The notes below the pieces were generated by a model, which saw nothing but the letters and a program-made list of their open reading frames with translations, made no database searches and was not told where the DNA came from. A stretch of 64,000 bases of DNA, from contig JAHPZH010000002.1 of the NCBI GenBank assembly GCA_019058315.1, positions 1,197,910 to 1,261,909 on the forward strand, written 5' to 3'. Positions 42,803-56,153 of this stretch are shown in pieces (position 1 is the first letter of the stretch; every line of letters begins with the position of its first letter). This stretch comes from Candidatus Helarchaeota archaeon (lineage in GTDB: Archaea > Asgardarchaeota > Lokiarchaeia > Helarchaeales > RDOG01). The translations under genes were made by a program, and so were the position numbers.

Positions 42803-43384
42803 ATGACTCATACTTTACATAGACAAGGAAATGAAGAAGCTCTAAAAAGTGATTATGCTATGCTCGCTATGGCAGCAGTAGGAATAAATGATAAAAAACC
42901 AGATACGCGAGATAAACTTGTTCGAATAGGAGAAATATTTCAGCAGCATAACCCCACAAATATTATGATGGAAAATATAAGGAGAGTTTCCCCAGCAATC
43001 ACAGCAGCTTTTACAAATATTGAAACTGTAAGAAAAATCTTAAAAACGTTAAAAAATGAGGATTTAGGCATTTCTATTGTTGTAAGTGGTTTAATTTCTG
43101 AGATTCAAAAAGTTGTGGAAGAAATTGGACTTAAAATGCATACAGTCCATCTTTCATTGGGTGTTTTTGGAAAAAAAGAACTTTTACCTTCAGAAAAAAT
43201 TTTAGAAATTACAACTATGTGCGGACACCACTGTGTATCTCCCCAGTCTGTAGAATCGTACGTAGATAAGATTAAAAAAGGGAAAACAACAATTGAAAAA
43301 GCTGCTGAAAAACTAGCAAAACCTTGTGTCTGTGGAATAGTAAACACTGAAAGAGTAAAAAATATTCTAAAAAAATTAATATAA
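42803..43384 (+). CDS. Conserved Cys/His-rich hypothetical protein, probable partner of the preceding Fe-S protein
   Basis: MTHTLHRQG, TTMCGHHCVS, PCVCGIVN; GAGGTGA RBS. Confidence 0.8.
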   Translation: MTHTLHRQGNEEALKSDYAMLAMAAVGINDKKPDTRDKLVRIGEIFQQHNPTNIMMENIRRVSPAITAAFTNIETVRKILKTLKNEDLGISIVVSGLISEIQKVVEEIGLKMHTVHLSLGVFGKKELLPSEKILEITTMCGHHCVSPQSVESYVDKIKKGKTTIEKAAEKLAKPCVCGIVNTERVKNILKKLI

Positions 43385-43414
43385 ATAAAATAAATTATTC
43401 TTTTATAATCTCAT

Positions 43415-43555
43415 TTACTTAAATAATTTCCCTAATTGGTCTGAAAAATTAAACATAGCGTCGGTCTTGAAAAATGCAAAATATACTATTGTAACTAGGA
43501 TGAGGAATAAATTTACTCCAATGAATAAGATTGTATAAGCCTTATAATTTTCCAT
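43415..43555 (-). CDS. 46-aa single-TM microprotein (not in ORF track)
   Basis: MENYKAYTILFIGVNLFLILVTIVYFAFFKTDAMFNFSDQLGKLFK*; AAGGA upstream; fills an otherwise empty gap. Confidence 0.55.
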   Translation of the reverse strand: MENYKAYTILFIGVNLFLILVTIVYFAFFKTDAMFNFSDQLGKLFK

Positions 43556-43740
43556 TTTTAATATTCCTTCTTCTTTACTTGTATAATATTATTTTTCAAT
43601 TTATATCTATTAATCTAACTGTTAGTAAGAATTATATATATAATTATTTATTTTAACATATTTTCTAGAATTTTAAAATTATTGTTAATTTTTCATCTTT
43701 ATTATATAATATTTCCTAGAATTTTAAGAAGGATCTTAAA

Positions 43741-45453
43741 ATGGACGAAAATATGGATGATAATATAATTAAAGAGGAAGTAAAACCAAAAATAGCTGAC
43801 GAACCTTCAAAAAAACTATCAAAAGAGGCAAGAAAAAAGCTTCGCGAAAAGAAAAGGGCTCAAACTGGTCCTTCAACTAAAATGACTTTATATCTTTGGT
43901 TTGTGCTCATTTTTGCTGGAGTTGTCACATTCTTCGATGGATGGTGTACTTTAGCAATTACTTTAGCTATGGGGGACGTCGGAATACAAGCTAATTTAAT
44001 TGAACAATTAACTAACCGCGGTCTATTCGACTATTTCGGCATTTCAAATAACCCTGTGATGATGGGTATAATTCTGAGCATAGCTGGCAGTGGAGTTGTT
44101 ATGGCAGTTTCATTTAAATATTTTGTGGATAAATATGGACGAAGACCTTTAACTCTTATCACTGCAGTTTGTTTTATTTCATTCTCCGCCTTAACTGGTT
44201 TAACTCCTCCTGGTGATACAGGCCTAATTATTTTTCTTATTTTAAGGATTCTGGCCAATTATTTCTTATCGGCTGATATCGTAACAATAATTATAGCAGA
44301 AGAAGCTCCAGATCATTTGAGAGGAAGATTAATTGGAGTAGTTTTAGCAACAAATACTGTCGGTGGTTTTATCTGTGGGATAATTCAAATGGTTGGAGTA
44401 ACAATAGAGCTACCTGGAGGTTACATTTTAAGTACTTGGCAGTCTTTATTTTTCTTATCCAGCCTTGGATTTATTTTCATAATTCCCATGTTCTTTTTCT
44501 TAAAAGAAACTTGGCGATTTGATGGTATGAAGAAATATGAGCAATGGCGAAAGAAAAGGGGGTTAGCCTCAAAAACTGGATGGGCTGTCCCTTTAAGAAG
44601 ACAATATGCGCGTGCCATGATCCTAGGCTGCATTATGGGTTTTCTTATTAACCTCATTTATTTCGCACAAGTCACATTTTTTGGAATTTACTTTGTGAAA
44701 GAATTAAACATGACTTCAAAATTTCTTGGTTTGGCATCGCTTCCATTAATGCTTTCTGCAGGAATTGGATACTATATAGCAGGCCCCTTAATGGATCGTT
44801 GGGGAAGAATTCCTACTATCCATAGATTCGGATGTACAACATTAGTTGGTGGCCTTATTTTTTCATGGCCCACGGTTTTTGTTGTTGGAGGCATTCCAAA
44901 TCCTTTACTTATGGCTCTCGTAATTGGTGGTGGAATGATGGGAATTCTATCACTTACAGTATTAATGACTGCAGCCGTACTTGTTCCGCTGGAAATGTTA
45001 CCAACTCATATTAGAAGTACTGCAATGGGTTGGATGGGAGCAATTGCAAGAGGTGCTATGATTGTATCTCCTTTCTTAATGATGTTCGGTTCTGAAACAT
45101 TAGGTGGTCTAGGACTTACCTATCAAGCCATGTTTGCACTTATGGGTATGCCCTTAACAACTCTATTGTTTTCAGCATATTTATTGGCTCCAGAGAGTAA
45201 AGGAAGAGTATTGGAAGAAATAGTTATGACAGAAATCTATACTAAACAGAAAAGAGTTGATAAAAAAGAATATAGGAGACCATATTATTATTTTGCAATG
45301 GGTATTACATCCTTCTTCTTTACAGGTTTAATTTACGGTAATACTGGTGATGGGATTTTTAAAAGTGTAATATTAATAGTAAGTATTTATAGCATAGTAT
45401 GTCTCGCTTGCTTCTTAATAGTGGTTTGGGCTCGTAATGTTATTTCAGAATAA
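43741..45453 (+). CDS. MFS transporter (paralog 1)
   Basis: VDKYGRRP and MDRWGRIP motif A, AEEAPDHLRG, EMLPTHIRST, APESKGR. Confidence 0.92.
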   Translation: MDENMDDNIIKEEVKPKIADEPSKKLSKEARKKLREKKRAQTGPSTKMTLYLWFVLIFAGVVTFFDGWCTLAITLAMGDVGIQANLIEQLTNRGLFDYFGISNNPVMMGIILSIAGSGVVMAVSFKYFVDKYGRRPLTLITAVCFISFSALTGLTPPGDTGLIIFLILRILANYFLSADIVTIIIAEEAPDHLRGRLIGVVLATNTVGGFICGIIQMVGVTIELPGGYILSTWQSLFFLSSLGFIFIIPMFFFLKETWRFDGMKKYEQWRKKRGLASKTGWAVPLRRQYARAMILGCIMGFLINLIYFAQVTFFGIYFVKELNMTSKFLGLASLPLMLSAGIGYYIAGPLMDRWGRIPTIHRFGCTTLVGGLIFSWPTVFVVGGIPNPLLMALVIGGGMMGILSLTVLMTAAVLVPLEMLPTHIRSTAMGWMGAIARGAMIVSPFLMMFGSETLGGLGLTYQAMFALMGMPLTTLLFSAYLLAPESKGRVLEEIVMTEIYTKQKRVDKKEYRRPYYYFAMGITSFFFTGLIYGNTGDGIFKSVILIVSIYSIVCLACFLIVVWARNVISE

Positions 45454-45483
45454 AAATGGTGTATATTAAATAATCAAAATCAA

Positions 45484-46623
45484 TTATTCAATTTTCTTTT
45501 TTTGATTTGATTCATAATCAAATAATTCTAGACCTTTAAACAATTCCTTATTTAACATTTCACCTTGTTCTTTTAGAAATGTATTCAATGCATTTTCAGG
45601 AATATCTGCAAAACTCATACCCAATTTAGCTTTACCGATAGGGTGTTTACGTCTAATCTTATCATATTCCTGTAATGTTTCCATTGAAAAACTGGAAGCA
45701 TCTACTGCATCAACCGCAATATCAGCTGCCATTGCACCAGAAATTGCTGCTGGAATTATGCCATGATATCCAACTGCATCCCCACAGAGCATTAATCCTG
45801 ATAAAACACCAGTTTTTAAAGCCTCACCGAGCAAAAAAGCGTATAATCCCCCTCTTAAACCAAATTCTTGAGCATTCTTAAGTCGTTTTTTTAATACTGG
45901 ATGATTTTTTTTAACGTTTAAATAATCTTGATATGTTCCAAATCCAACCAGAGCATGCCCTTCTTCATCTAAATTAGATACAAAAGCATTAGCAATATGT
46001 TTATCAAATATAGAGCCAAAAAATATTTCAATTACACCAGGCTCAACATCTTTCATATTTAAGAATTCAACTTGGATACCTGGATAATATTTTCGTTCCT
46101 TTTTCTTGTCATATTTTAAAATTCCAGATTTTTCTGCAATTCCCATCGGAATAGATTTACTACCATCACATCCTATAAGAAGATCAGAGTAAATTTTTTG
46201 AATTTTGCCTTTCCTTTTAGCCACTATTCCTATAATCTTTTCATCTTCTTTAATAAGATCAATTACCTTGGTTCCAATGCTTAATTGAGAACCCGCTTGA
46301 ACTGCTTTCTGCGCAAGAAATTGATCAAATTTCACTCGATCTACAAAATAACCACCATTAAATTTCATTTCATAAGCGAATTCACCTTTAGGAGTCCAAA
46401 CACGCCAGCGATCGACTTTAGTAATGATTTTATCCCTTCCAAATTCATTCACAAGTTTCTCAGTATATGGACATCCATTTAGCCAACCAGAGCAATGAAC
46501 AGGAAGTCCAATTGTTGAGTGTTCTTCGATTAATAAAACACTTAATCCTTTTTCCGCAGTCTTTCTCGCCGCTAAAGAACCAGCAGGTCCAGCACCTACG
46601 ATAATTACCTCAAAATTTTCCAT
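45484..46623 (-). CDS. Geranylgeranyl reductase-family FAD oxidoreductase
   Basis: VIIVGAGPAGS, PVHCSG, DRVKFDQFLA, GCDG, LCGDAVG. Confidence 0.85.
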   Translation of the reverse strand: MENFEVIIVGAGPAGSLAARKTAEKGLSVLLIEEHSTIGLPVHCSGWLNGCPYTEKLVNEFGRDKIITKVDRWRVWTPKGEFAYEMKFNGGYFVDRVKFDQFLAQKAVQAGSQLSIGTKVIDLIKEDEKIIGIVAKRKGKIQKIYSDLLIGCDGSKSIPMGIAEKSGILKYDKKKERKYYPGIQVEFLNMKDVEPGVIEIFFGSIFDKHIANAFVSNLDEEGHALVGFGTYQDYLNVKKNHPVLKKRLKNAQEFGLRGGLYAFLLGEALKTGVLSGLMLCGDAVGYHGIIPAAISGAMAADIAVDAVDASSFSMETLQEYDKIRRKHPIGKAKLGMSFADIPENALNTFLKEQGEMLNKELFKGLELFDYESNQKKKIE

Positions 46624-46721
46624 AATGCTCACAAATTCACTGATCTTCAAATTTAATAGAATTGATATTTAATCTAATTCCGAGATATAAACATTTAAAT
46701 ATGTATAATGTTAAATTTTAC

Positions 46722-46749
46722 TTGAATGTAAAAAATAGTTTACATTCAA
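46722..46749. promoter_or_regulatory. Palindromic operator upstream of the XRE operon
   Basis: Perfect 11-bp inverted repeat TTGAATGTAAA-N6-TTTACATTCAA, between a TTTAAATA TATA-like box and the RBS of the 46787 gene. Confidence 0.75.
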
Positions 46750-46786
46750 AAAATGTTTTACAAAATTAGGAGATGAATGAAGAAAA

Positions 46787-47647
46787 ATGTCTGAAAAATA
46801 TAAAATGGATCAAAAAATCGATAAATCATTGATAACTAAGGAAACTTTCAAAGCATTCATAATAGTAATCTCAATCTGTGCATTAGCATGTTTAATTGCA
46901 TCTTTCGTTATAGCTGGTGCATTTAACGATCCTGAAAACAATCCATTAGGTCATAATCTTCAATATATTTACATTCCAATTATATTAATTATAATTGGTA
47001 CAGTAGGTGTTTCATTACCATTTGTTGTAGTTGTTGTCACACGAGTTTACATGGGTAAGTATGTAAGCAGTTTTAAATACAAGTTGACCAATTCTGCAAT
47101 AGAGATTCGCCAAGGTGTGTTCACAAAGAATAAAGTCACCATACCTTATTCACGTGTTCAAAATATTAATGTCGTGAATGGTATCTTCGATAGAATTTTT
47201 GGACTTTATACCGTTTTAATAGAAACGGCTGGTATTTCAGGAGTACAAGCACAAGGAGGTAAAATCGGAAGACCTGAGGGTTATTTACCTGGATTAAAAA
47301 ATCCACATGAATTCGAAGCAGAATTAAAACAAATGTTAGACAAGTATAATGTGTTACCATCGGGATTAGAAGAAAAAATCTTCAAGCCTCAAGAATTAGC
47401 CTTTGATAATTTTATCTCTTATATACTTAGCAAAATGAGAGATAGAGATGATTTATTAAAAACGAATGTTAAAGACCTCAGGGAAAAACAAAAAATAACC
47501 TCAATAGAGCTTGCAGCAAAAATAGGAGTTAAAAACGAAACTATAGAACTTTTAGAAGCAGGAAGATACACGCCTTCATTAAGTTTGGCGTATAAAATTG
47601 CTAAAGAATTAAAATGCAAAATAGAAGACCTATTTCAATTCGATTAA
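46787..47647 (+). CDS. 2-TM + bacterial-type PH domain (bPH_2/YdbS-like) + C-terminal XRE HTH fusion
   Basis: Two TM helices; YKLT..AIEIRQGVF....TIPYSRVQNINV..GIFDRIFGLYTVLIETAG (bPH_2); VKDLREKQKITSIELAAKIGV...LEAGRYTPSLSLAYKIAKELKCKIEDLF (HTH_3). Confidence 0.88.
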   Translation: MSEKYKMDQKIDKSLITKETFKAFIIVISICALACLIASFVIAGAFNDPENNPLGHNLQYIYIPIILIIIGTVGVSLPFVVVVVTRVYMGKYVSSFKYKLTNSAIEIRQGVFTKNKVTIPYSRVQNINVVNGIFDRIFGLYTVLIETAGISGVQAQGGKIGRPEGYLPGLKNPHEFEAELKQMLDKYNVLPSGLEEKIFKPQELAFDNFISYILSKMRDRDDLLKTNVKDLREKQKITSIELAAKIGVKNETIELLEAGRYTPSLSLAYKIAKELKCKIEDLFQFD

Positions 47648-47687
47648 ATATTTTTTTAATATTTTAAAATAATAAAATGGTGCAATT

Positions 47688-48074
47688 GTGAGATTAAAAA
47701 CAAAATTAGTTTCCAAAATTAAGGAATTACGGGCGGAGAGTGACATTACTCAAGAAAAATTAGCTGAAGAAGTTGGTGTCACTCGCCAAACTATTTCCTA
47801 TTTGGAGAAAGGCGAATATAATCCCTCTCTAAAAATTGCTCATGATATTGCACAATATTTTGGAAAATCAGTGGATGATGTTTTTACATATGAAACAGTA
47901 TTAACTATTAAAAGAGAACAATTTAATCTCACTCTTGAACAATTAGCCACCCTGATTGGTATCAAAATTGAAGAATTAGAAAAATTAGTAAATGAGGAAT
48001 ATCAAAATCCTCCAGAATTTTTGAAAAAAATAGCAAAACAATTAAATTGTAAAATCGAGGATTTGGTTGAGTAA
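47688..48074 (+). CDS. Tandem double XRE/Cro HTH regulator
   Basis: IKELRAESDITQEKLAEEVGVTRQTISYLEKGEYNPSL plus a second KREQFNLTLEQLATLIGI...KIAKQLNCKIEDL. Confidence 0.92.
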   Translation: MRLKTKLVSKIKELRAESDITQEKLAEEVGVTRQTISYLEKGEYNPSLKIAHDIAQYFGKSVDDVFTYETVLTIKREQFNLTLEQLATLIGIKIEELEKLVNEEYQNPPEFLKKIAKQLNCKIEDLVE

Positions 48075-48105
48075 ATAGCTAATTATAAAAATAATTTAAC
48101 AGAAA

Positions 48106-49209
48106 GTGAATCATTTGGATAAACTAAATGAGTTTTTTGCCAAAAAATGGGCATTACCCCTATTATATTTTGTTTTAATTATTTTAAACGTGATCTTTCC
48201 TCCTATAACATCTAGAGGATATGCTGCTCAGGATACTGGAAGAGTAATATCAAGTTTATTAAATACCTCTATCATTCCTTATGTATGGTTAGCCCCTGTA
48301 TTTCATATTGCGACAATAATTTTAGTAATTATTATTTGGCGTCTAGGGGTCAAAGTAAGTAGAGTTTTTAGTTTATACATTGGTATAAATTATATTTTTA
48401 TAGGTCTTATCCAAAATTTTGGAGAAACATGGGAATTTGGTTTTGTTATATTAATCGGGACTATGATTACAGAATTCATAATAGGATTTTTATGGATATG
48501 GGATGCTTACGATCCTAAAACTGAAAGTAAATTTGAGAAACTTCCACTTTGGAGATATTGGACTATACCATTAGCGATTTTAGCATATTGGTGCCCAATT
48601 AACTCTACACAAAACATGGGACCCTATTTCAACCCACTATTTTTATTGATTTCGCCAGGGTATGGACTTACTTTTTGTATGACAACACCCGTGTTTCTAT
48701 GTATTTTAACCCTTTTCTATCCACATGTAAATAAACCCGCTCTTAAAATAACAGCTTGTGCTGGATTTATTATGGGAGTTTTGAATATGTTTAGTTTGCT
48801 CATCCCTTACACCTTTTGGATGGGTATATTGCATATTCCTTTATTGTCTATCTCAATTTATGTATTCATTTTACCTAAAATAATGAAAAATGAGCCAAAA
48901 ATTGTAAATCAAGAACTTGTAAAAATCCCCCATGTTCAAGGACGTCTTATTGGAGAAGTAAACATAGGTAAGTTAGAAGATTTTTTAATTGCAGAAAAAT
49001 CTACCGAAGGAGTAGAGGTAGGCGATATTGTTGAAATTATTGGGGGACCATTTAAAGGAGAAAAAGCAAAAATCACCCGAGTTGATACAACTGAAGATGT
49101 AGTTATTTTAGTATTATGTGAATCTACTCGCCCGATTCCAATTAAAGTTCATGCAGATTTTATTAAAAAGATAATCAGTAAAGAAAAAAGAAAGCCTGAA
49201 ATGAAATAA
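48106..49209 (+). CDS. Multi-pass membrane protein fused to an Spt5/NusG-type C-terminal KOW domain
   Basis: About 270 aa of TM helices, then IPHVQGRLIGEVNIGKLEDFL...VEVGDIVEIIGGPFKGEKAKITRVDTTEDVVILVLCESTRPIPIKVHADFIKKI. Confidence 0.85.
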   Translation: MNHLDKLNEFFAKKWALPLLYFVLIILNVIFPPITSRGYAAQDTGRVISSLLNTSIIPYVWLAPVFHIATIILVIIIWRLGVKVSRVFSLYIGINYIFIGLIQNFGETWEFGFVILIGTMITEFIIGFLWIWDAYDPKTESKFEKLPLWRYWTIPLAILAYWCPINSTQNMGPYFNPLFLLISPGYGLTFCMTTPVFLCILTLFYPHVNKPALKITACAGFIMGVLNMFSLLIPYTFWMGILHIPLLSISIYVFILPKIMKNEPKIVNQELVKIPHVQGRLIGEVNIGKLEDFLIAEKSTEGVEVGDIVEIIGGPFKGEKAKITRVDTTEDVVILVLCESTRPIPIKVHADFIKKIISKEKRKPEMK

Positions 49210-49243
49210 TTTATTAAAAATCCAGTAAGCATAAGGTCTGGTA

Positions 49244-50935
49244 ATGAAAAAAATTGATAAAATTTCTAATATTAATGAAAAAAAAGCTATTTTACATATT
49301 AAGAAAGAATATTATTTAGATGAAACAGATTTTGAAATTGATAAAGAGGGACGAGTAGTTAAACTTCGATTACTAGAAAAATGGTTTGAAATTGCACCTG
49401 AAATTATAGGAAAACTCACTCATTTAGAAGAATTAGACCTTCAAAATAATGATTATTTTTATCCCCCAGAAGATGTTGATTCAAAAATTGGAAATTTAGA
49501 AAATCTTACCAAATTAAAAAAATTAAACCTCCATTTTAATTATCTTAAAAAAATTGAAGGTTTAGCGAATCTCTCTAATTTAAGAGAATTAGATCTTCAT
49601 ATGAATAAAATTGTAAAAATAGAGAACTTAGAAAATCTTCATAATTTAAATCACTTATACCTCTCACATAATCATATTGAAAAAATAGAGGGTTTAGAAA
49701 ATCTCACTCAATTGAAAACTTTAGATTTCGCATATAATCCAATTAAAAAAATAGAAGGATTAGAGAATCTAACTCAACTACAAACTTTAGATTTTATGCA
49801 TAATAAGATAACAAAGATCGAAGGTTTGGAAAATCTCCATAAATTGGAAGATTTAAATTTGTTTGGGAGTGTTATAAAAAAGATAGAAGGCTTAGAGCAC
49901 CTTACTCAATTAAAAAAATTAGATTTATACGGAAAAGAGATTAAAAAGATAGAAGGGTTTGAATGTCTTATTAATTTAGAAACGTTGTATTTATATGGAA
50001 ATCAAATTGAAAAAATTGAGGGGCTTGAGACTCTTTCTAAATTACAGCATCTATCTTTTAATAAAAATAAGATAAAAAAGATTGAAGGTTTAGATAATTT
50101 ATTGGAATTAGAAGGAATAAATATTTCTGAAAATGAAATTATAAAGATCGAGGGATTAGATAATCTCATTAAATTACAAAAATTAGATCTTGCCAGTAAT
50201 AAGATAAAAGAAATTAATGGTTTAAATAAATTAAATCAAGTGGAAGAAATAGACCTTTCCAATAATCAAATCGAAAAAATAATTGGGCCATTAAACCTTT
50301 CTAATTTAAAAATACTAAAAATTAAAAATAATAAGATCAAGCAAATAGAAGGGTTAGAAGAACTAACACAATTAGAGGAATTAGATTTATGTGAAAACAA
50401 AATAACGAATATTATGGGGCTAGACAGACTCGTTCAATTGAAATATTTGAATCTGGATAACAATCTAATCTATATGCTTGAAGGGTTAGATAATCTATCA
50501 AATTTAGAAAGTTTACATATTTCAGACAATAAAATAACAAAGATAGAAGGTTTAGAAAAGCTTAACCAATTAAAAAAATTAATATTAAGCTCTAATCTCA
50601 TTTCTAAAATCGAAGGTTTAGAGAATCTTCCTCAATTAGAAACTTTAACTCTACATTTTAATCAAATTAGAAAGTTGGAAGGATTAGATAATCTTATCCA
50701 TTTAACAGATCTTACCCTTGATTACAATCCTTTGGATGCAGAAGACCAAAAAATAATTAAAGAAGATATAAAAAAAATAATTTCTCATTATAAAAAGAGA
50801 GAAATAAAAGGGCTTGTTAAGCAATTGGAATTATTAAAGGCACAGTCTGAAATAGACGGACTGAATTTAGAAGATTATATTATTTTAAAAAGGAAAATAG
50901 AAAAAATTAGTAAAAAAATAAAAGATTTTAAATAA
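49244..50935 (+). CDS. SDS22-like leucine-rich-repeat protein with C-terminal helical domain
   Basis: About 20 repeats of the 22-aa unit LENLTQLKTLDL..N.IKKIEG. Confidence 0.93.
   Translation: MKKIDKISNINEKKAILHIKKEYYLDETDFEIDKEGRVVKLRLLEKWFEIAPEIIGKLTHLEELDLQNNDYFYPPEDVDSKIGNLENLTKLKKLNLHFNYLKKIEGLANLSNLRELDLHMNKIVKIENLENLHNLNHLYLSHNHIEKIEGLENLTQLKTLDFAYNPIKKIEGLENLTQLQTLDFMHNKITKIEGLENLHKLEDLNLFGSVIKKIEGLEHLTQLKKLDLYGKEIKKIEGFECLINLETLYLYGNQIEKIEGLETLSKLQHLSFNKNKIKKIEGLDNLLELEGINISENEIIKIEGLDNLIKLQKLDLASNKIKEINGLNKLNQVEEIDLSNNQIEKIIGPLNLSNLKILKIKNNKIKQIEGLEELTQLEELDLCENKITNIMGLDRLVQLKYLNLDNNLIYMLEGLDNLSNLESLHISDNKITKIEGLEKLNQLKKLILSSNLISKIEGLENLPQLETLTLHFNQIRKLEGLDNLIHLTDLTLDYNPLDAEDQKIIKEDIKKIISHYKKREIKGLVKQLELLKAQSEIDGLNLEDYIILKRKIEKISKKIKDFK
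49480..50735 (+). repeat. 66-bp coding tandem repeat (LRR units)
   Basis: Recurring AAAAT(A/T/C)GA(A/G)GG(T/G/A)TTAGA(A/T/G)AATCT units at about 66-bp spacing. Confidence 0.8.
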
Positions 50936-51031
50936 TTGGTTTTTATATTTTATCAATTTGACTTTTTTTTAATTAAAACTAATGACTTAAATATGCTATT
51001 TGTTACTGTGTAGTACCTATGTCTAGCTGGA

Positions 51032-52738
51032 GTGCATGTGATGAAAGAAAAAGAAAAGACAAAAACTACCGATCTTGAAACTTTTAAAAAATTACCAAAG
51101 GATCAACGCAAGAAAATTCGAGAAAAAAGAAGAATCGAAGCTGGTTTGCCTACAAAAATGACTATATACCTCTGGTTTGTTCTCTTCTTTGCAAGTGTCG
51201 TTACATTTTTCGATGGATGGTGTACTCTCGCAATTACGCTGGCTATGGGAAGTTTTGCTGGAGGAGTAGATTTATTGGAACAATTACTTAATCCTGATCT
51301 TTTTACATATTTTGGATTAACATCTAGTCCGGTTATGATGGGAATTATTCTTTCTATAGCAGGAATTGGAGTCGTAGTTGCCGTTTCTTTTAAATATTTT
51401 GTTGATAAATATGGTCGTCGTCCATTAACTCTTATAACTGCAGTTCCGTTTATTACATTCTCAGTTTTAACTGCATTTGTTCCTCCTAGTAGAGAAGGGT
51501 TAATTTTATTTCTTATTTTAAGGATTTGTGCTAACTACTTTCTTTCAGCTGATGTGGTAACTATTATAATAGCGGAAGAATCTCCTAATCATTTGAGAGG
51601 TAGATTGGTTTCAATGGTTCTTGCAATGAATGCAGTTGGGGGGTTTGCTTGTGGAATGATTCAAGCGACGGGAATTAAAATTCCATTCTCTGGTGCTTGG
51701 GGACCAAGTTTAAGTACCTGGCAAAGTTTATTTTTCTTGACGAGTATTGGATATTTATTTATTATTCCACTATTTATCTTCTTAAAAGAAACTAAACGAT
51801 TTGTACAAATGAAAAAATATGAAGAATGGCGAGCAAAAAAAGGATTAAAAGCTAAATCTGGATGGTTTGCACCTTTACAAAAAAAATATGCACGGGGGAT
51901 GGCAACAGGAATGATCGTTGGATTTTTAGCACAATTAATATATTTTGCTCAAGTAACCTTCTTCGCACTCTATTTTGCTAAAGAACAGAATTTAACTCCA
52001 AAGGTGGTAGGAATTGTATCATTACCACTAATGCTTGCAGCAGGAGTAGGTTATTTTGTAGCTGGACCTATATTAGACCGATGGGGAAGACTTCCCACTA
52101 TATATAGATTTGGTTGCACAACTTTAGTAGGAGGTATGGTCTTTTCATGGCCTACAGTCTTTATTGTTGGTGACATTGCCAATCCGTTACTTATGGGCAT
52201 TGTTTTAGCTGGAGGTATGATGGGTATATTCTCTCTAACAATATTAGCTGCTGCAGGAACTATTCTTCCCATGGAAATGTTACCAACTCATATTCGAAGC
52301 ACTGCTATGGGTTGGATCGGTGCTATTTCAAGAGGTGCAACTATTGTGGCTCCTTTCTTAATGATGTATGGGGCGGAAGCATTGGGTGGATTAGGACTTA
52401 CTTATCAAGCTATGTTCGCACTCATGGGAATGCCATTGACAACAATACTGTTTACTGCCTTCCTATTAGCACCTGAAAGTAAGGGAAGAGATTTGGAGGA
52501 AATCGTAGCTACTGAAACTTACTCTAAAATGAAGAAAATATCTGAAAAAGAATACAGAAGACCTTATTACTACTTTGCAATAGCCATCTCTTCATTTTAT
52601 ATTACAGGATTAATTTACGGTAATACCTCTGATGCAAATTTCTTAAATGTATTCATTATCGCGACCTTCTACACGGCGTTATGCTTGGTTTGTTTCATAT
52701 TAGTTATTCTGGTCCGTAGAATAATTACAGAGAAGTAA
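51032..52738 (+). CDS. MFS transporter (paralog 2)
   Basis: Same motifs as the 43741 gene, with long identical peptides. Confidence 0.92.
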   Translation: MHVMKEKEKTKTTDLETFKKLPKDQRKKIREKRRIEAGLPTKMTIYLWFVLFFASVVTFFDGWCTLAITLAMGSFAGGVDLLEQLLNPDLFTYFGLTSSPVMMGIILSIAGIGVVVAVSFKYFVDKYGRRPLTLITAVPFITFSVLTAFVPPSREGLILFLILRICANYFLSADVVTIIIAEESPNHLRGRLVSMVLAMNAVGGFACGMIQATGIKIPFSGAWGPSLSTWQSLFFLTSIGYLFIIPLFIFLKETKRFVQMKKYEEWRAKKGLKAKSGWFAPLQKKYARGMATGMIVGFLAQLIYFAQVTFFALYFAKEQNLTPKVVGIVSLPLMLAAGVGYFVAGPILDRWGRLPTIYRFGCTTLVGGMVFSWPTVFIVGDIANPLLMGIVLAGGMMGIFSLTILAAAGTILPMEMLPTHIRSTAMGWIGAISRGATIVAPFLMMYGAEALGGLGLTYQAMFALMGMPLTTILFTAFLLAPESKGRDLEEIVATETYSKMKKISEKEYRRPYYYFAIAISSFYITGLIYGNTSDANFLNVFIIATFYTALCLVCFILVILVRRIITEK

Positions 52739-52844
52739 AATATGATTTTTTTAATAAATTTCTTTTTTTCTTTTAAATTATTTAATAAAAACAAGTAAGT
52801 AGGGACTATTTTTAAAATTTTTAGAATTAATATACTATAAAATA

Positions 52845-53321
52845 ATGAATAGCCTGATATTTAAAATGGAACATAAAAATAAACCTGAAAAAGAGCTATA
52901 TATAGAATTGGAAGAAAAAATAAAGAATATAAAAAGAGATAAAAGAGAATTAGCAATACAAATAAAAAATATGGAAACCTATTTAATAACATTATTTAAA
53001 AAATATGAATTAATCGAGGAGAAAATAGCAGCACGTAAATTAAAACTCGATGTAAAGGTCTTATCAAATTTAGAAGAAAAAACAGTGGATTTAGAGAAAG
53101 CAATTGAATTAACTAAAGAACAATATGAACAAACAAATCAAATTATAAATGAGTGTCAAAAAAAGTTAGAAGAAGCACGGGATGAAGGATTACAAGACCT
53201 TATTAAAAGAATTCAATTTCTTCAAGACAAAACTAAAATAAATGGACTTAAATTATCAGATCTAGAGGTTTTAAATAAAGAAATAGATGAAATTTATAAA
53301 AGAATAGAGAAAATTAAATAA
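52845..53321 (+). CDS. Coiled-coil protein with a C-terminal domain shared with the LRR protein
   Basis: Heptad-rich K/E sequence; the last 45 aa align without gaps to the LRR protein C-terminus. Confidence 0.75.
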   Translation: MNSLIFKMEHKNKPEKELYIELEEKIKNIKRDKRELAIQIKNMETYLITLFKKYELIEEKIAARKLKLDVKVLSNLEEKTVDLEKAIELTKEQYEQTNQIINECQKKLEEARDEGLQDLIKRIQFLQDKTKINGLKLSDLEVLNKEIDEIYKRIEKIK

Positions 53322-53333
53322 TTAATTCAAAAA

Positions 53334-56153
53334 TTGTTGATGTTTAAAATGAAATCCGATAATATAGTGATTGTACCGACCACCCACTGGGATAGAGAAT
53401 GGTATATTCCATTTAATGAGTTTAGGGCATATTTAGTGCTAATGATTGATAAGTTAATTGATATTCTTAATAACGATCCAAAGTTTAATAATTTTACATT
53501 AGATGGTCAGACAATTCCTTTAGAAGATTATTTAGAAGTAAGACCTGAAAAAGAAGACTTGATTAAGAAATTTGTTAAGGAAAGTCGACTTTCCATTGGT
53601 CCAATGTATATTTTGCCTGATGAATTTTTAATTAGTGGAGAATCTTTTATTAAAAATTTATTATTGGGGCATAAAATCTCCAGAAAATTCGGAAGAGTAA
53701 TGAAGGCAGGATATATTCCGGATCCATTTGGTCACATCGCCCAATTACCTCAAATATTAAGTGGCTTTGAAATACCTTCTGCATTATTCGCAAGGGGATT
53801 TGGAAATGAATTTAAAGAGAATAATTTAGATATGGAATTTATTTGGAATTCACCCGGAAACGCCGCATCGGTTATTGGAGTCCATTTAATAGGTGGCTAT
53901 TTTTCAGCAGCAGCTCTAAGTACGAAGATAAAGGAAGGTAAATATAAAAAAGCAATTGGTCAAATTAGAAGAGCTGTTAAACGATTTGAAGGATACACCT
54001 CAACGAGCATGGCTTTACTTAATAATGGATCAGATCATCTTTTTGCGCAACCGCATGTTCCAGAAATTGTAAAGCAATGGAACGAAGAATATCCTGAAAA
54101 ATTATTAGAAATAAATGATTTTGAATATTACATTAAAAAAGTATCAGAAAAAAATCCAAGATTAAAAATATTTCAAGGTGAATTACGGGGAGGAAAATAT
54201 ATGCCCCTTCTTTCTGGAGTTTTTTCGGCTAGAATGTGGATAAAACAGCAAAACACAGAAATAGAGTATTTGTATGAAAAATATACTGAACCTATATCTG
54301 CAATAACGTGGGCTCTTGATAAATACAATAGATTCAACTATCCAAAGGATTATATCTGGACAGGCTTGAAATGGTTATTAAAAAATCATCCTCATGATTC
54401 AATTTGTGGTTGTTCAATTGATGAAGTACATGATGAAATGAGAACAAGATTTCAGTGGTCAAAGCAAATAGGGAATGAAATTCTTAAAAATTCATTTATT
54501 TACCTTTCAGATTTAATAAAATTAGATACTTCAGATAAAAATAAGCATGCTGTTATAATTTACAACCCTCTTCCATGGAAGCGAAAAGATATTGCTTCAT
54601 TTGATTTAATTGTACGAAATCTAAAAGCTGGGAAGCATGATAATAAACCTATTAATAATATTAATTTAATTGATTCGGATGGAAATGAAATTGAATATCA
54701 ACAAGTCAGAATTAAAGAGCAACCAAGATATTTGGAGGAACAAAATTCAACAAATAGAATTAGTTTCATCGCAGATGTTCCAGCATTAGGTTATAAGGTA
54801 TTTTATATTGCACCTATAGAAACTGTGAAAGAATTCTCTACAGAAAATAACGACTTCAAATTAACAGAGAATTCACTAGAAAACGAATTTTACAAAATAG
54901 ATATTAAATTAAATGGACAAATTAACATTTTTGATAAAATAGATGGCATTTTATACGAAAATATTTGCCAATTCGAGGATGTTGGAGATTGGGGCGATGA
55001 ATACGATTATTCAGGACCCCATGGAGAGAGAAAAGATACCATATTTTCTACTAAAGATGCTATACACGTTAAGATAAAACCCTTTATAGACGGTCCTTCA
55101 GAAAAAGTAATCAAAATTGATCTAACACTATATTTACCCTCCTATTTATCTCCTGATCGTCTAACACGTGAAAAAAATCTTGTTAGAAATGATGCAAGTC
55201 TTTATATCTTTTTATATAAGGGGATAAACCGAATAGATTTCAAATTTGAAATTGAAAATGCTAGTAAAGACCATCGACTACGTATTTTATTTCCTTCTAA
55301 AATTAAATCAGAGAAAGTATATACAGATGGGCACTTTTATATCGTTCCTAGAGATGTAAATTTACCGAACGATGAAAATTGGGCGCAAAAAGCGTTACCT
55401 ACAAACCATCAAAAAGATTTTGTATGTGTTTTTGATAAAAACAAATGTTTCGCAGTTTTAAACAAAGGGTTACCCGAATACGAAGCAATAAAAGAAATTG
55501 ATGGCACAATAACTTTGGCTATAACGTTATTAAGGTGCATTGGGTGGCTTTCACGTGGTGATTTCGCAACAAGAGGAACTATTGCAGGTCCCGATCTAAA
55601 TACTCCTGAGGCTCAATGTCTGGGAAAGCATTCATTTGAATTTTCATTAACTATACAACATAAGAAAGGAGATTATCTGGATTCAGAAATTCATGTATTA
55701 GGAAAAGAATTTAACAATCCTCTAATGTCCATTATACCCGAGACCGTAAAAACCCCTATAAGGGCATTAAATAAGATTGTTCTAAGCCCAATAGCTGTAT
55801 TAGCAGTATTTAGAACTCCTCTTCGTAAAGAAATTGAAGAATTTTTACCGCCAACCTTAAGCTTTTTAGAAATTGATAATAAAAAAATCTTATTAAGCGC
55901 TTTAAAACAATCAGAAGCTGGAGATACATTAATTATTAGATTGTATAATTTATCTCCGAAGAAAGAATCATGTAATCTCAAATTTTTTGAAGGTATTTCA
56001 ATTAAAAATGTAGAAATTACCAATTTTCTAGAGGAAAAGCCAAAAAATGAAATAAAGGCAGATATTAAATTAATTAATAAGAATAATATAGATTTATCTT
56101 TAGAACCGTATGTTATAGTTACCATTAAAGTTAAAATCTTAAATAAAAATTAG
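53334..56153 (+). CDS. Alpha-mannosidase GH38 (MngB-like)
   Basis: THWDREW, LDGQT, PDEFLISGES, PDPFGH, NGSDH, HPHDSICGCSID, TLLRCIGWLS. Confidence 0.95.
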   Translation: MLMFKMKSDNIVIVPTTHWDREWYIPFNEFRAYLVLMIDKLIDILNNDPKFNNFTLDGQTIPLEDYLEVRPEKEDLIKKFVKESRLSIGPMYILPDEFLISGESFIKNLLLGHKISRKFGRVMKAGYIPDPFGHIAQLPQILSGFEIPSALFARGFGNEFKENNLDMEFIWNSPGNAASVIGVHLIGGYFSAAALSTKIKEGKYKKAIGQIRRAVKRFEGYTSTSMALLNNGSDHLFAQPHVPEIVKQWNEEYPEKLLEINDFEYYIKKVSEKNPRLKIFQGELRGGKYMPLLSGVFSARMWIKQQNTEIEYLYEKYTEPISAITWALDKYNRFNYPKDYIWTGLKWLLKNHPHDSICGCSIDEVHDEMRTRFQWSKQIGNEILKNSFIYLSDLIKLDTSDKNKHAVIIYNPLPWKRKDIASFDLIVRNLKAGKHDNKPINNINLIDSDGNEIEYQQVRIKEQPRYLEEQNSTNRISFIADVPALGYKVFYIAPIETVKEFSTENNDFKLTENSLENEFYKIDIKLNGQINIFDKIDGILYENICQFEDVGDWGDEYDYSGPHGERKDTIFSTKDAIHVKIKPFIDGPSEKVIKIDLTLYLPSYLSPDRLTREKNLVRNDASLYIFLYKGINRIDFKFEIENASKDHRLRILFPSKIKSEKVYTDGHFYIVPRDVNLPNDENWAQKALPTNHQKDFVCVFDKNKCFAVLNKGLPEYEAIKEIDGTITLAITLLRCIGWLSRGDFATRGTIAGPDLNTPEAQCLGKHSFEFSLTIQHKKGDYLDSEIHVLGKEFNNPLMSIIPETVKTPIRALNKIVLSPIAVLAVFRTPLRKEIEEFLPPTLSFLEIDNKKILLSALKQSEAGDTLIIRLYNLSPKKESCNLKFFEGISIKNVEITNFLEEKPKNEIKADIKLINKNNIDLSLEPYVIVTIKVKILNKN

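What the first reader, a model, noticed from the sequence alone, without database searches (positions are those of the whole stretch)
46700..50935. Candidate undescribed membrane-tethered transcription/signalling operon (PH-TM-XRE, double XRE, TM-Spt5 KOW, LRR)
Seen: four co-oriented genes with gaps of only about 30-40 nt sit behind a perfect 11-bp palindrome. Two of them fuse membrane domains to transcription modules (bPH_2 + XRE HTH; multi-TM + Spt5 KOW). One is a soluble tandem XRE and one is an LRR solenoid. Established: YdbS-like bPH_2 membrane proteins and small XRE regulators occur in envelope-stress and antimicrobial-peptide response loci, and XRE domains dimerise. Inference: the membrane-bound HTH could heterodimerise with and sequester the soluble repressor, while the KOW fusion acts at the elongation/translation level. 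That would be a membrane-to-gene relay with LRR sensing. I do not recognise this combination as a described system.
Basis: partly seen in the sequence, partly recalled or inferred. Interest (0 to 1): 0.8.

Follow-up and report, generated by a model that had tools for sequence, protein, structure and literature searches.

The report
Asgard regulator pair plus recent gene chimera
Two of the four genes are a conserved, uncharacterised Asgard-archaeal regulator pair with its own conserved DNA operator, but the eye-catching membrane–Spt5 KOW fusion and the LRR gene come from a recent 2.1-kb insertion found only in this lineage, so the four genes are not one ancient signalling system.

Summary
Four co-oriented genes lie at 46787-50935 with gaps of 40, 31 and 34 nt, behind a perfect 11-bp inverted repeat. 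The domain calls are correct.

The four-part relay does not hold.

1. g1 (2TM-bPH_2-XRE) and g2 (tandem XRE) form an Asgard-wide pair. They are adjacent in 69 of 75 species loci. The palindrome is their conserved operator: ATGTWA-N5-9-TWACAT occurs upstream of g1 in 27 of 75 loci, against 0.08 expected.

2. The genes downstream of the pair vary. An ABC ATPase plus ABC-2 permease follows in 28 of 75 loci. In this lineage an unnamed 8-TM protein and an MFS transporter follow instead.

3. Window 48903 to about 50975 is an insertion that the closest relative (L038) lacks.
- It joins codons about 57-156 of the genome's own spt5 (87% nt identity) in frame to the 3' end of the 8-TM gene, at a 13-nt microhomology.
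- It also adds one member of an LRR family with more than 40 loci in this genome.
- No other TM-KOW fusion was found among 5.8 billion proteins.
- The KOW copy evolves under relaxed constraint (17 nonsynonymous : 9 synonymous changes, against 0:12 in the parent gene).
- Its NGN remnant is predicted to be disordered.

The fusion is real: contigs from two studies span its junctions. The scan noted the same g1-g2 architecture before in another genome (e1-4703085).

The parts
46722..46749 (.). Operator: perfect 11-bp inverted repeat with a 6-nt spacer; the conserved core ATGTAAA-N6-TTTACAT is at 46726-46745. A further TTTTACA half-site-like element lies at 46756-46762.
   Evidence: the core motif is conserved upstream of g1 orthologues (27 of 75 loci against 0.08 by chance) and occurs once in the window
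46787..47647 (+). g1: N-in 2-TM hairpin, bPH_2 domain (aa 97-188), invariant helix (aa 201-216), C-terminal XRE HTH (aa 228-282)
   Evidence: 315 or more homologues, and every one that carries an organism name is an Asgard archaeon
47648..47687 (+). g1-g2 gap with a T7 run (47651-47657) and a TATA-like AT tract. This could be an archaeal terminator plus internal promoter, so co-transcription is not assured.
   Evidence: sequence read directly; inference
47688..48074 (+). g2: soluble tandem XRE. HTH1 is canonical and highly conserved. HTH2 is degenerate, and its last helix is nearly identical to the last helix of the g1 HTH.
   Evidence: adjacent to g1 in 69 of 75 loci
48106..48901 (+). g3, ancestral part: 8-TM protein of an unnamed family (distant DUF6064 likeness). 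It stands alone (250-340 aa) in all other genomes.
48889..48901 (+). Recombination junction: 13-nt microhomology between the native 3' end of the TM gene (...EPKIE-stop in L038) and spt5 (...EPQIVNQ). The window reads ...EPKI|VNQ.
   Evidence: alignment A6
48902..49209 (+). g3, acquired part: copy of the genome's own spt5 codons about 57-156 (last part of NGN plus KOW), followed by two further codons and a stop. It is 87% nt and 83% aa identical to the parent gene at G000:C5:1129272-1129910.
48903..50975 (+). Lineage-specific insertion (spt5 fragment plus LRR unit) relative to the collinear relative L038. The right edge is approximate.
   Evidence: no flanking direct repeats
49244..50935 (+). 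g4: cytoplasmic LRR protein built of 22-aa (66-nt) repeats with a C-terminal helical tail. It is one of more than 40 paralogous LRR loci in the genome.
51032..52738 (+). MFS transporter (MFS_b). In the relative L038 it follows the TM gene directly, so it is the probable downstream cargo.
45484..46650 (-). Geranylgeranyl-reductase-family FAD oxidoreductase, divergent from g1. It is a conserved neighbour in L038, L141 and L039.
43741..45453 (+). MFS transporter paralogue (MFS_a), also present in L141 and L038

Best explanation
The locus has an old core and a young add-on.

Old core: an Asgard-specific regulatory cassette.
- g1 is a 2-TM hairpin, a cytoplasmic bPH_2 domain, an invariant helix and an XRE HTH.
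- g2 is a soluble tandem XRE.
- A conserved ATGTAAA-N6-TTTACAT operator sits just upstream of g1.

Inferred mechanism: an HTH of the pair binds the operator and autoregulates the cassette, and whatever downstream genes are co-transcribed with it. The membrane-anchored bPH module senses a membrane or substrate state and changes how much g1 HTH or g2 is free to bind DNA. This may work through a g1-g2 contact via their homologous C-terminal helices.

The downstream cargo is membrane transport. It is an ABC-2 type exporter in about 37% of species. In this lineage it is an 8-TM protein of an unnamed family and probably the MFS transporter.

Young add-on: after the split from the nearest sequenced relative, a 2.1-kb insertion arrived.
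- An illegitimate crossover at a 13-nt microhomology fused about 100 codons of the genome's own spt5 (the tail of NGN plus KOW) in frame onto the 8-TM gene.
- One copy of a highly expanded LRR family landed behind it.

The resulting protein is a cytoplasm-facing KOW domain on a disordered tether of about 40 aa. It cannot act as Spt5 because the RNAP- and Spt4-binding half of NGN is missing. It is most likely a tolerated, weakly constrained by-product rather than a designed part of a relay.

Shown: the anatomy, conservation, operator, insertion, junction, parentage and relaxed constraint. Inferred: the regulatory logic, what is sensed, and the neutrality of the KOW tail.
For: g1-g2 pair:
- They are adjacent and co-oriented in 69 of 75 species-representative Asgard loci. 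An ABC ATPase follows within the next three co-oriented ORFs in 28 of 75, mostly together with a permease that matches Pfam ABC2_membrane_3 only weakly, below its cut-off.
- Both genes are under purifying selection against L038 (omega 0.14-0.15).

Operator:
- The motif occurs in 27 of 75 upstream regions against 0.08 expected (maximum 2 in 500 shuffles). It occurs once in the 64-kb window, at the palindrome.
- The near relatives L038, L039/L040 and L024 keep the same palindrome.

Possible g1-g2 contact:
- The last helix of g2 HTH2 is near-identical to that of the g1 HTH.
- Complex prediction with g1 (aa 90-286) and g2 gave weak support: score 0.55, best of 3 controls 0.00. The mark was reached by 58 of 80 solved complexes and 2 of 110 mismatched pairs. 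At 0.60 or under it was reached by only 7 of those 80 and by both mismatches that passed.
- The runs agree in at least 67% of contacts and the partner pLDDT is at least 86. My own alignments were used, and XRE dimers are common among solved structures, so the pass may reflect likeness.

Insertion:
- L038 is collinear with window 45199-48902 and 51038-52420 only.
- Its TM gene ends ...EPKIE-stop and an MFS gene follows.

Parentage of the KOW:
- It is 87% nt and 83% aa identical to the genome's own spt5, against 51-60% to the Spt5 of the relatives in its own order.
- dS of KOW against the parent is 0.44, below the dS of 0.59-0.61 between the window and L038 for the flanking genes.
- The junction lies at a microhomology.

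Uniqueness: among 54 hits in 5.8 billion proteins (201-643 aa), only the window's own protein joins the TM domain and KOW.

Constraint on the KOW copy:
- The copy's branch has 17 nonsynonymous and 9 synonymous changes, and the parent branch 0 and 12 (Fisher p = 2e-4).
- The copy does not differ significantly from neutral expectation (p = 0.10).

Structure: the TM domain has pLDDT above 90, residues 269-299 are below 50, and the KOW is near 80. Only profile positions 49-144 of 145 of TIGR00405 are matched.

LRR: at least 40 paralogous loci, the best 47-49% identical.

The fusion is not an assembly artefact:
- Independent Logan contigs of the source sample span 46600-49089 and 49063-52000 with no differences.
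- In a second study, a contig spans the TM|KOW junction (X3: 48789-48959) and others span KOW to LRR (X3, X4) and LRR to MFS (X2, X4).
Against: - The reading frame through the spt5 fragment is intact, and a 32-aa KOW core (aa 298-329) is unchanged. Omega of about 0.5 is below 1, though not significantly. The fusion persists in populations from two studies. Some function of the tethered KOW therefore cannot be excluded.
- There are no expression data. Co-transcription, autoregulation and the identity of the operator-binding HTH are untested.
- A T7 run directly after the g1 stop codon could terminate transcription.
- The operator motif was detected in only 27 of 75 loci. Other lineages carry different palindromes or none that I could detect.
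- The related species are not independent samples, so the enrichment statistic overstates the support.
- The 8-TM gene is next to g1-g2 in only about 4 assemblies and is absent from the otherwise syntenic L142. Its status as regulated cargo is therefore an inference.
Confidence: 0.72

Rival explanations
1. All four genes form one membrane-to-gene relay: the membrane-bound HTH sequesters the soluble repressor, the TM-KOW protein acts on elongation or translation, and the LRR protein is the sensor.
For: The genes are tightly packed and co-oriented. The operator is conserved. A g1-g2 contact has weak in-silico support: 0.55 against controls of 0.00, with the calibration caveats given.
Against: The KOW and LRR parts are absent from every other g1-g2 locus examined. 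They lie in a recent insertion. The KOW copy lacks the NGN half that binds RNAP and evolves under relaxed constraint. The LRR protein has no TM segment, signal peptide or output domain, and it belongs to a dispersed family of more than 40 loci.
Confidence: 0.05
2. The TM-KOW chimera is a young gene with a new function. Its membrane-tethered KOW domain would recruit or titrate a normal Spt5-KOW partner (ribosome, the termination factor aCPSF1/FttA, or RNA) at the membrane. This could couple local translation or termination to the 8-TM protein.
For: The fusion is in frame. The KOW core is unchanged over 32 residues, while synonymous differences from the parent gene have accumulated within it. 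Omega is about 0.5, which is below 1. The KOW is predicted to fold (pLDDT about 80) and to face the cytoplasm. The fusion is present in samples from two studies. Solved archaeal complexes show Spt5 KOW in the FttA pre-termination complex (PDB 9bct, listed).
Against: It is a singleton among 5.8 billion proteins. The constraint does not differ significantly from neutral (p = 0.10). Several charge-changing or hydrophobic substitutions lie just after the KOW core: E332V, E336V, F338C and H342R. The junction at a microhomology looks accidental. There are no expression data.
Confidence: 0.13
3. g1-g2 is not a transporter regulator. It is instead an XRE-type toxin-antitoxin, abortive-infection or mobile-element control module, in which the membrane bPH protein is the effector and g2 its controller.
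For: XRE HTHs of this type match antitoxin, C-protein and capH models. The downstream cargo varies from locus to locus.
Against: The PADLOC hits cover only the generic HTH, and no system-specific model matches g1, g3 or g4. The pair is single-copy, lies in the chromosome and is vertically conserved across Asgard lineages with omega of about 0.14. No integrase or transposase is nearby. The most frequent neighbour is an ABC exporter.
Confidence: 0.08

Closest known systems
YdbS/YdbT-type bPH_2 (PF03703) membrane proteins of Bacillota (B. subtilis ydbST; Enterococcus DdE/DdF)
   Same: g1 has the YdbS layout: an N-terminal 2-TM hairpin followed by one bPH_2 domain. As with DdE/DdF, which are encoded beside an ABC transporter and are needed for bacteriocin export (PMC8657885), the Asgard family often sits beside an ABC exporter.
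   Different: g1 carries an extra invariant helix and a C-terminal XRE HTH. There is no YdbT-like multi-bPH partner. The partner is instead a soluble tandem XRE. The family is confined to Asgard archaea in the collections searched.
Membrane-tethered one-component DNA-binding regulators and XRE-TM proteins (ToxR/CadC type; RodZ with HTH_25 plus TM). Comparison from general knowledge.
   Same: A cytoplasmic HTH is held at the membrane by TM helices, so a membrane signal could act on DNA binding without a phosphorelay.
   Different: Here the HTH is C-terminal to the anchor, and the sensor candidate is a cytoplasmic bPH domain rather than a periplasmic domain. A dedicated soluble paralogue (g2) always accompanies it.
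SinR/SinI/SlrR-type XRE circuits, in which a partner sharing the regulator's C-terminal helices titrates it. Comparison from general knowledge.
   Same: g1 and g2 share a near-identical terminal helix. A contact is weakly supported in silico. Together these suggest control by heteromer formation.
   Different: There is no sequence membership in those families. One partner is membrane-anchored, and g2 is a tandem (pseudo-dimeric) XRE.
Archaeal Spt5 (TIGR00405; NGN plus KOW)
   Same: g3 residues about 265-361 are a recent copy of this genome's spt5. The KOW fold matches solved Spt5: 4zn3_A, Z 9.9, rmsd 2.1 over 65 residues.
   Different: The first 48 or so profile positions, which form the RNAP- and Spt4-binding half of NGN, are missing, and the remnant is predicted to be disordered. 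The copy is fused to an 8-TM protein. The true spt5 lies 68 kb away in the usual FtsZ - spt5 - tmk - aIF5B neighbourhood; a secE gene between ftsZ and spt5 was seen in the relatives L051/L052 but was not checked in this genome.

Membership tests
bPH_2 (Pfam PF03703), YdbS-like | HMM match above the gathering score | tested here: met
   62.9 bits against a cut-off of 22, aa 95-152
bPH_2 (Pfam PF03703), YdbS-like | The domain is preceded by a 2-TM hairpin and folds as a beta-sandwich capped by a C-terminal helix | tested here: met
   TM segments at about 24-42 and 65-83 with a K-rich N-terminus. The AF2 model has strands at 97-170 and a helix at 173-188, pLDDT about 80.
YdbS/YdbT two-gene system | An adjacent YdbT-like protein with several bPH_2 domains | tested here: not met
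   No second bPH_2 protein is present in the locus. The partner is an XRE protein in 69 of 75 loci.
XRE / Cro-C1 HTH (Pfam HTH_3 PF01381) | HMM match above the gathering score | tested here: met
   g1 45.1 bits; g2 95.4 bits with two stretches
XRE / Cro-C1 HTH (Pfam HTH_3 PF01381) | Binding to a palindromic operator | not testable with these tools
   Only indirect evidence: a conserved palindrome upstream of g1
Transcription elongation factor Spt5 (TIGR00405) | A complete NGN domain that binds the RNAP clamp and Spt4 | tested here: not met
   Only profile positions 49-144 of 145 are matched. The alignment to the genome's own Spt5 starts at about residue 53. Residues 269-299 have pLDDT below 50.
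Transcription elongation factor Spt5 (TIGR00405) | KOW domain | tested here: met
   Pfam KOW 31.5 bits. Structural match to 4zn3_A: Z 9.9, rmsd 2.1, 65 residues aligned.
Leucine-rich repeat proteins (LRR_4/LRR_8) | Tandem LRR units above the gathering score | tested here: met
   LRR_4 248 bits with 13 stretches; 66-nt DNA periodicity
Operon (single transcription unit g1-g4) | Co-transcription | not testable with these tools
   No RNA data could be laid. The gaps are 31-40 nt, but the first contains a T7 run and all are AT-rich and TATA-like.
DUF6064 (PF19540), considered for the 8-TM domain | HMM match | tested here: inconclusive
   No Pfam hit at E of 5 or less for 8 family members. The only link is an Atlas structural neighbour cluster in which 11% of members carry DUF6064 (TM-score 0.50 by the query, 0.90 by the target).

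The most novel reading that the evidence does not exclude
The TM-KOW chimera is a newborn functional gene. A KOW domain copied from the essential elongation factor Spt5 is anchored to the cytoplasmic face of the membrane. There it captures a normal KOW partner (ribosome or the aCPSF1/FttA termination factor) and couples transcription or translation locally to the membrane. It would sit under the control of an Asgard-specific membrane-tethered XRE switch.
Probability: 0.1. Interest if true: 0.75.

Novelty: new variant of a known kind. Interest (0 to 1): 0.42.

Why it matters
1. The work defines an uncharacterised family found only in Asgard archaea in the collections searched. It is a membrane-anchored bPH-XRE protein with an obligatory soluble tandem-XRE partner, a defined operator motif and a frequent ABC-2 exporter cargo. 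This gives a concrete and testable handle on membrane-to-DNA signalling in the archaeal relatives of eukaryotes, where very few regulators have known sites.

2. It documents a datable, junction-resolved case of gene chimerism. Part of an essential transcription factor gene was copied and fused in frame to a membrane protein at a microhomology. This shows how striking domain architectures can arise by accident. It also warns against reading function from a singleton fusion or from tight gene spacing.

Tried and rejected
- RNA evidence: no RNA holder was listed by the look-up of sequencing runs, so expression and co-transcription could not be addressed.
- Read laying: parts of the stretch had no cover in X2-X4. 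No conclusion is drawn from those holes.
- Rfam: no family reached its gathering score in 43000-54000.
- Bacterial-type promoter and terminator scan: not above the shuffled expectation, and not suited to archaea.
- Fold of the 8-TM domain: Foldseek against the PDB and VIA-align wide returned only KOW-like matches, because the small KOW domain filled the lists. This is no evidence that the TM fold is new.
- Pfam on 8 TM-family members at E of 5 or less: nothing meaningful.
- Regulon search: the loose operator motif is not enriched genome-wide (21 sites against 32 for the reversed control). The stricter GAATGTA-N6-14-TACATTC pattern has one other site in the genome, with about 0.7 expected by my own estimate. 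No regulon is claimed.
- Mobile-element explanation for the insertion: no flanking direct repeats and no integrase or transposase ORF.
- Defence-system membership: PADLOC hits only the generic HTH.
- Literature: four full-text searches found no description of a bPH-XRE fusion or a membrane-Spt5 KOW fusion. The library is incomplete.
- First alignments that included whole Spt5 proteins were misaligned. They were replaced by A3.

Full report
**Observation.**
The window carries four co-oriented ORFs:
- g1, 46787-47647
- g2, 47688-48074
- g3, 48106-49209
- g4, 49244-50935

The gaps between them are 40, 31 and 34 nt. NCBIfam places the g3 tail on the Spt5 equivalog TIGR00405, but only on profile positions 49-144 of 145.

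The palindrome TTGAATGTAAA-N6-TTTACATTCAA lies at 46722-46749. By itself, a perfect 11-bp inverted repeat is not unusual at this base composition. One is seen in the window and 1.15 are expected per 64 kb.

**Organism.**
The window is G000:C5:1197910-1261909 of a 5.8-Mb, 12-contig genome. Its same-family relative G001 is a MAG titled Candidatus Helarchaeota (L060 = G001:C8). Homologues of g1 and g3 that carry an organism name are named Hel-, Hod-, Loki- or Promethearchaeota, with one Freyarchaeota. The genome is therefore an Asgard archaeon of the Lokiarchaeia/Helarchaeales group.

**The conserved core is g1 plus g2.**
- In 41 related genomes, g1 has full-length matches (44-60% identity) in most genera, and almost every match has an HTH hit 60-100 nt downstream.
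- In 14 fetched loci, 11 show a g2-like XRE gene directly downstream, and two more carry a short XRE-like ORF there. None has g3, g4, an MFS or a GGR homologue within about 6 kb.
- A scan of 185,579 species genomes used two peptides from the invariant g1 linker. It returned 80 loci. All that carry an organism name are Asgard, and the rest are titled only 'uncultured archaeon'.
- Of 75 loci with enough downstream sequence, 69 have a g2-type XRE gene next and co-oriented (median gap 71 nt). In 28, an ABC ATPase follows within the next three co-oriented ORFs, mostly with a permease of about 537 aa. That permease matches Pfam ABC2_membrane_3 only weakly (20.8 bits against a cut-off of 31.6).
- No g3-TM, KOW, LRR or MFS gene follows g1-g2 in any of these loci.
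- At least 315 g1 homologues exist in the 5.8-billion-protein collection. All 120 listed carry bPH_2, and nearly all also carry HTH_3.

**Anatomy of g1 and g2.**
g1 has these parts:
- A lysine-rich N-terminus and two TM helices. By the positive-inside rule both termini are cytoplasmic.
- A bPH beta-sandwich with its capping helix (aa 97-188).
- A short low-confidence linker.
- A helix at aa 201-216 whose residues are invariant across 41 homologues.
- The HTH at aa 228-282.

g2 has a canonical, highly conserved first HTH and a degenerate second one. The last helix of that second HTH is nearly identical to the last helix of the g1 HTH, and the likeness is visible even at the DNA level.

**The palindrome is the family's operator.**
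- The near relatives keep the same inverted repeat at the same place: L038 and L039/L040, and L024 with one mismatch.
- Across the 75 species loci, ATGTWA-N5-9-TWACAT occurs within 150 nt upstream of g1 in 27 loci. Only 0.08 are expected, with a maximum of 2 in 500 Markov shuffles.
- Single half-sites are enriched 4.5-fold.
- The motif occurs exactly once in the 64-kb window, at 46726.
- Related species are not independent, so the statistic is generous. However, the flanking sequences have diverged while the core has not.
- Genome-wide, the loose motif is not enriched (21 against 32 for the control). I therefore claim autoregulation of the cassette, not a regulon.

**Cargo in this lineage.**
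The TM part of g3 belongs to an unnamed family of stand-alone proteins of 250-340 aa, found in Asgard archaea and in bacteria. It has eight predicted TM helices and is modelled with pLDDT above 90.

It follows g1-g2 only in the closest assemblies:
- L038: GGR(-) | g1 | g2 | TM | MFS
- L141: MFS | GGR(-) | g1 | g2 | TM N-terminus, where the contig ends
- L039/L040: GH38(-) | g1 | g2 | TM | 191-aa gene | FAD oxidoreductase

The TM gene is missing from the otherwise syntenic L142. It stands in unrelated contexts in Freyarchaeota and in two unnamed metagenomic contigs. The TM gene is therefore lineage-specific cargo, like the ABC exporter elsewhere.

**KOW and LRR are a recent insertion.**
- L038 aligns collinearly with window 45199-48902 and again with 51038-52420. 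The 2.1 kb in between has no counterpart.
- The insertion starts with 311 nt that are 87% identical to the genome's own spt5, which lies 68 kb away at G000:C5:1129272-1129910. That gene encodes a 212-aa protein next to ftsZ, tmk and aIF5B.
- The g3 tail is 83% identical in protein to that Spt5. It is only 51-60% identical to the Spt5 of the relatives in its own order.
- The junction is resolved. The native TM gene ends ...EPKIE-stop in L038, spt5 reads ...EPQIVNQ, and the window reads ...EPKI|VNQ. The crossover lies in a 13-nt stretch that matches at 11 positions. This is the signature of illegitimate, microhomology-mediated recombination. It also explains why the fusion is in frame.
- The second piece of the insertion is the LRR unit. 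Homology to a paralogue begins 47 nt upstream of the LRR start codon, right at the end of the spt5 fragment.
- The LRR protein is one of more than 40 paralogous loci in the genome, the best 47-49% identical. It has no signal peptide or TM segment.
- No direct repeats flank the insertion.

**Age and constraint.**
- dS between the KOW copy and its parent is 0.44. This is less than the 0.59-0.61 between the window and L038 for the TM gene and MFS_b, so the event postdates that split.
- I polarised the changes with the Spt5 of a Helarchaeota MAG (L051). The copy's branch carries 17 nonsynonymous and 9 synonymous changes. The parent branch carries 0 and 12 (Fisher p = 2e-4).
- The copy's ratio (omega about 0.5) cannot be distinguished from neutral expectation (one-sided binomial p = 0.10).
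- For comparison, g1, g2 and the TM part have omega of 0.14-0.15.
- A 32-residue KOW core is unchanged, but E332V, E336V, F338C and H342R lie just behind it.
- AlphaFold2 models the NGN remnant (aa 269-299) as disordered and the KOW as folded. Structural neighbours of the tail are Spt5/NusG KOW domains.
- Without the N-terminal half of NGN, the protein cannot dock on RNAP as Spt5 does. This last point rests on established knowledge of Spt5/NusG.

**Uniqueness and reality of the fusion.**
Among proteins of 201-643 aa in the 5.8-billion collection, only the window's own protein joins this TM family to a KOW. The fusion is not an assembly artefact, as one search shows:
- Independent Logan contigs of the probable source run span 46600-49089 and 49063-52000 without a difference. 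They break only at the stretch shared with true spt5.
- In a different study, a contig from run X3 bridges the TM|KOW junction (48789-48959).
- In that same study, contigs bridge KOW to LRR (X3, X4) and LRR to MFS (X2, X4).

**Mechanism.**
What is shown:
- a membrane-anchored XRE protein;
- an obligatory soluble tandem-XRE partner;
- a conserved operator between the promoter region and g1;
- variable transporter cargo.

What is inferred: an HTH of the pair represses at the operator, and the bPH/TM module modulates this in response to a membrane or substrate cue. This may work by capturing g2 through the shared terminal helices, in the manner of SinR/SinI.

The one complex prediction gave weak support for a g1-g2 contact:
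- The score was 0.55, and the best of 3 controls was 0.00.
- The mark was reached by 58 of 80 solved complexes and 2 of 110 mismatched pairs.
- At 0.60 or under it was reached by only 7 of the 80 and by both mismatches that passed.
- The runs agree in at least 67% of contacts, and the partner pLDDT is at least 86.
- My own alignments were used. XRE dimers abound among solved structures, so the pass may reflect likeness rather than binding.

Bacterial bPH_2 proteins DdE/DdF are needed for bacteriocin export and are encoded beside an ABC transporter (PMC8657885). This parallels the frequent ABC exporter neighbour here. The parallel is an analogy, not a membership claim.

**Verdict.**
The four-gene relay is not supported: the KOW fusion and the LRR gene are recent, lineage-specific additions. 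The finding reduces to two things. One is a new Asgard variant of a membrane-tethered one-component regulator, now with a defined operator. The other is a well-documented young chimeric gene.

Noticed in passing
window 50798-50935 and 53184-53321: The last 43 or so residues of the LRR protein align with the C-terminus of the 158-aa coiled-coil protein two genes downstream (33% identity, E = 3e-6). The same tail also ends at least five other LRR paralogues in the genome. It looks like a shared C-terminal helical module of the LRR family.
   Followed up: partly
G000:C5:1129272-1129910 (L013 3273-3911, minus strand): The genuine Spt5 is 212 aa. It carries a Glu/Lys-rich C-terminal extension of about 55 aa after the KOW, ending in a conserved ...TKFVL. 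The Helarchaeota Spt5 in L051 has the same extension. The extension was not copied into g3.
   Followed up: no
G000:C11:759718-759744 (L140 6219-6245): The only other genomic match to GAATGTA-N6-14-TACATTC lies 34 nt upstream of a 1477-aa NTPase-like ORF. About 0.7 such sites are expected by chance (my own estimate), so it may mean nothing.
   Followed up: partly
window 46787-48074 compared with L038 1571-2876: Between the window and L038, g1 and g2 are far more diverged (dS 1.7 and 1.15) than the flanking TM and MFS genes (dS about 0.6). A different MAG (L141) has a closer g1 (74% aa against 63%). This hints at allelic replacement or recombination of the regulator pair.
   Followed up: no
window 43741-45453 and 51032-52738: Two paralogous MFS transporters (about 69% nt identity between copies) bracket the cassette. 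The same arrangement is seen in L141 and L038, so the duplication is older than the insertion.
   Followed up: partly
L038 2475-2876: The deposited gene call for the tandem XRE in this MAG is only 67 aa. The stop-to-stop frame, however, encodes a full g2 homologue of about 130 aa with a non-ATG start. The short call is probably an annotation artefact, not a broken gene.
   Followed up: yes
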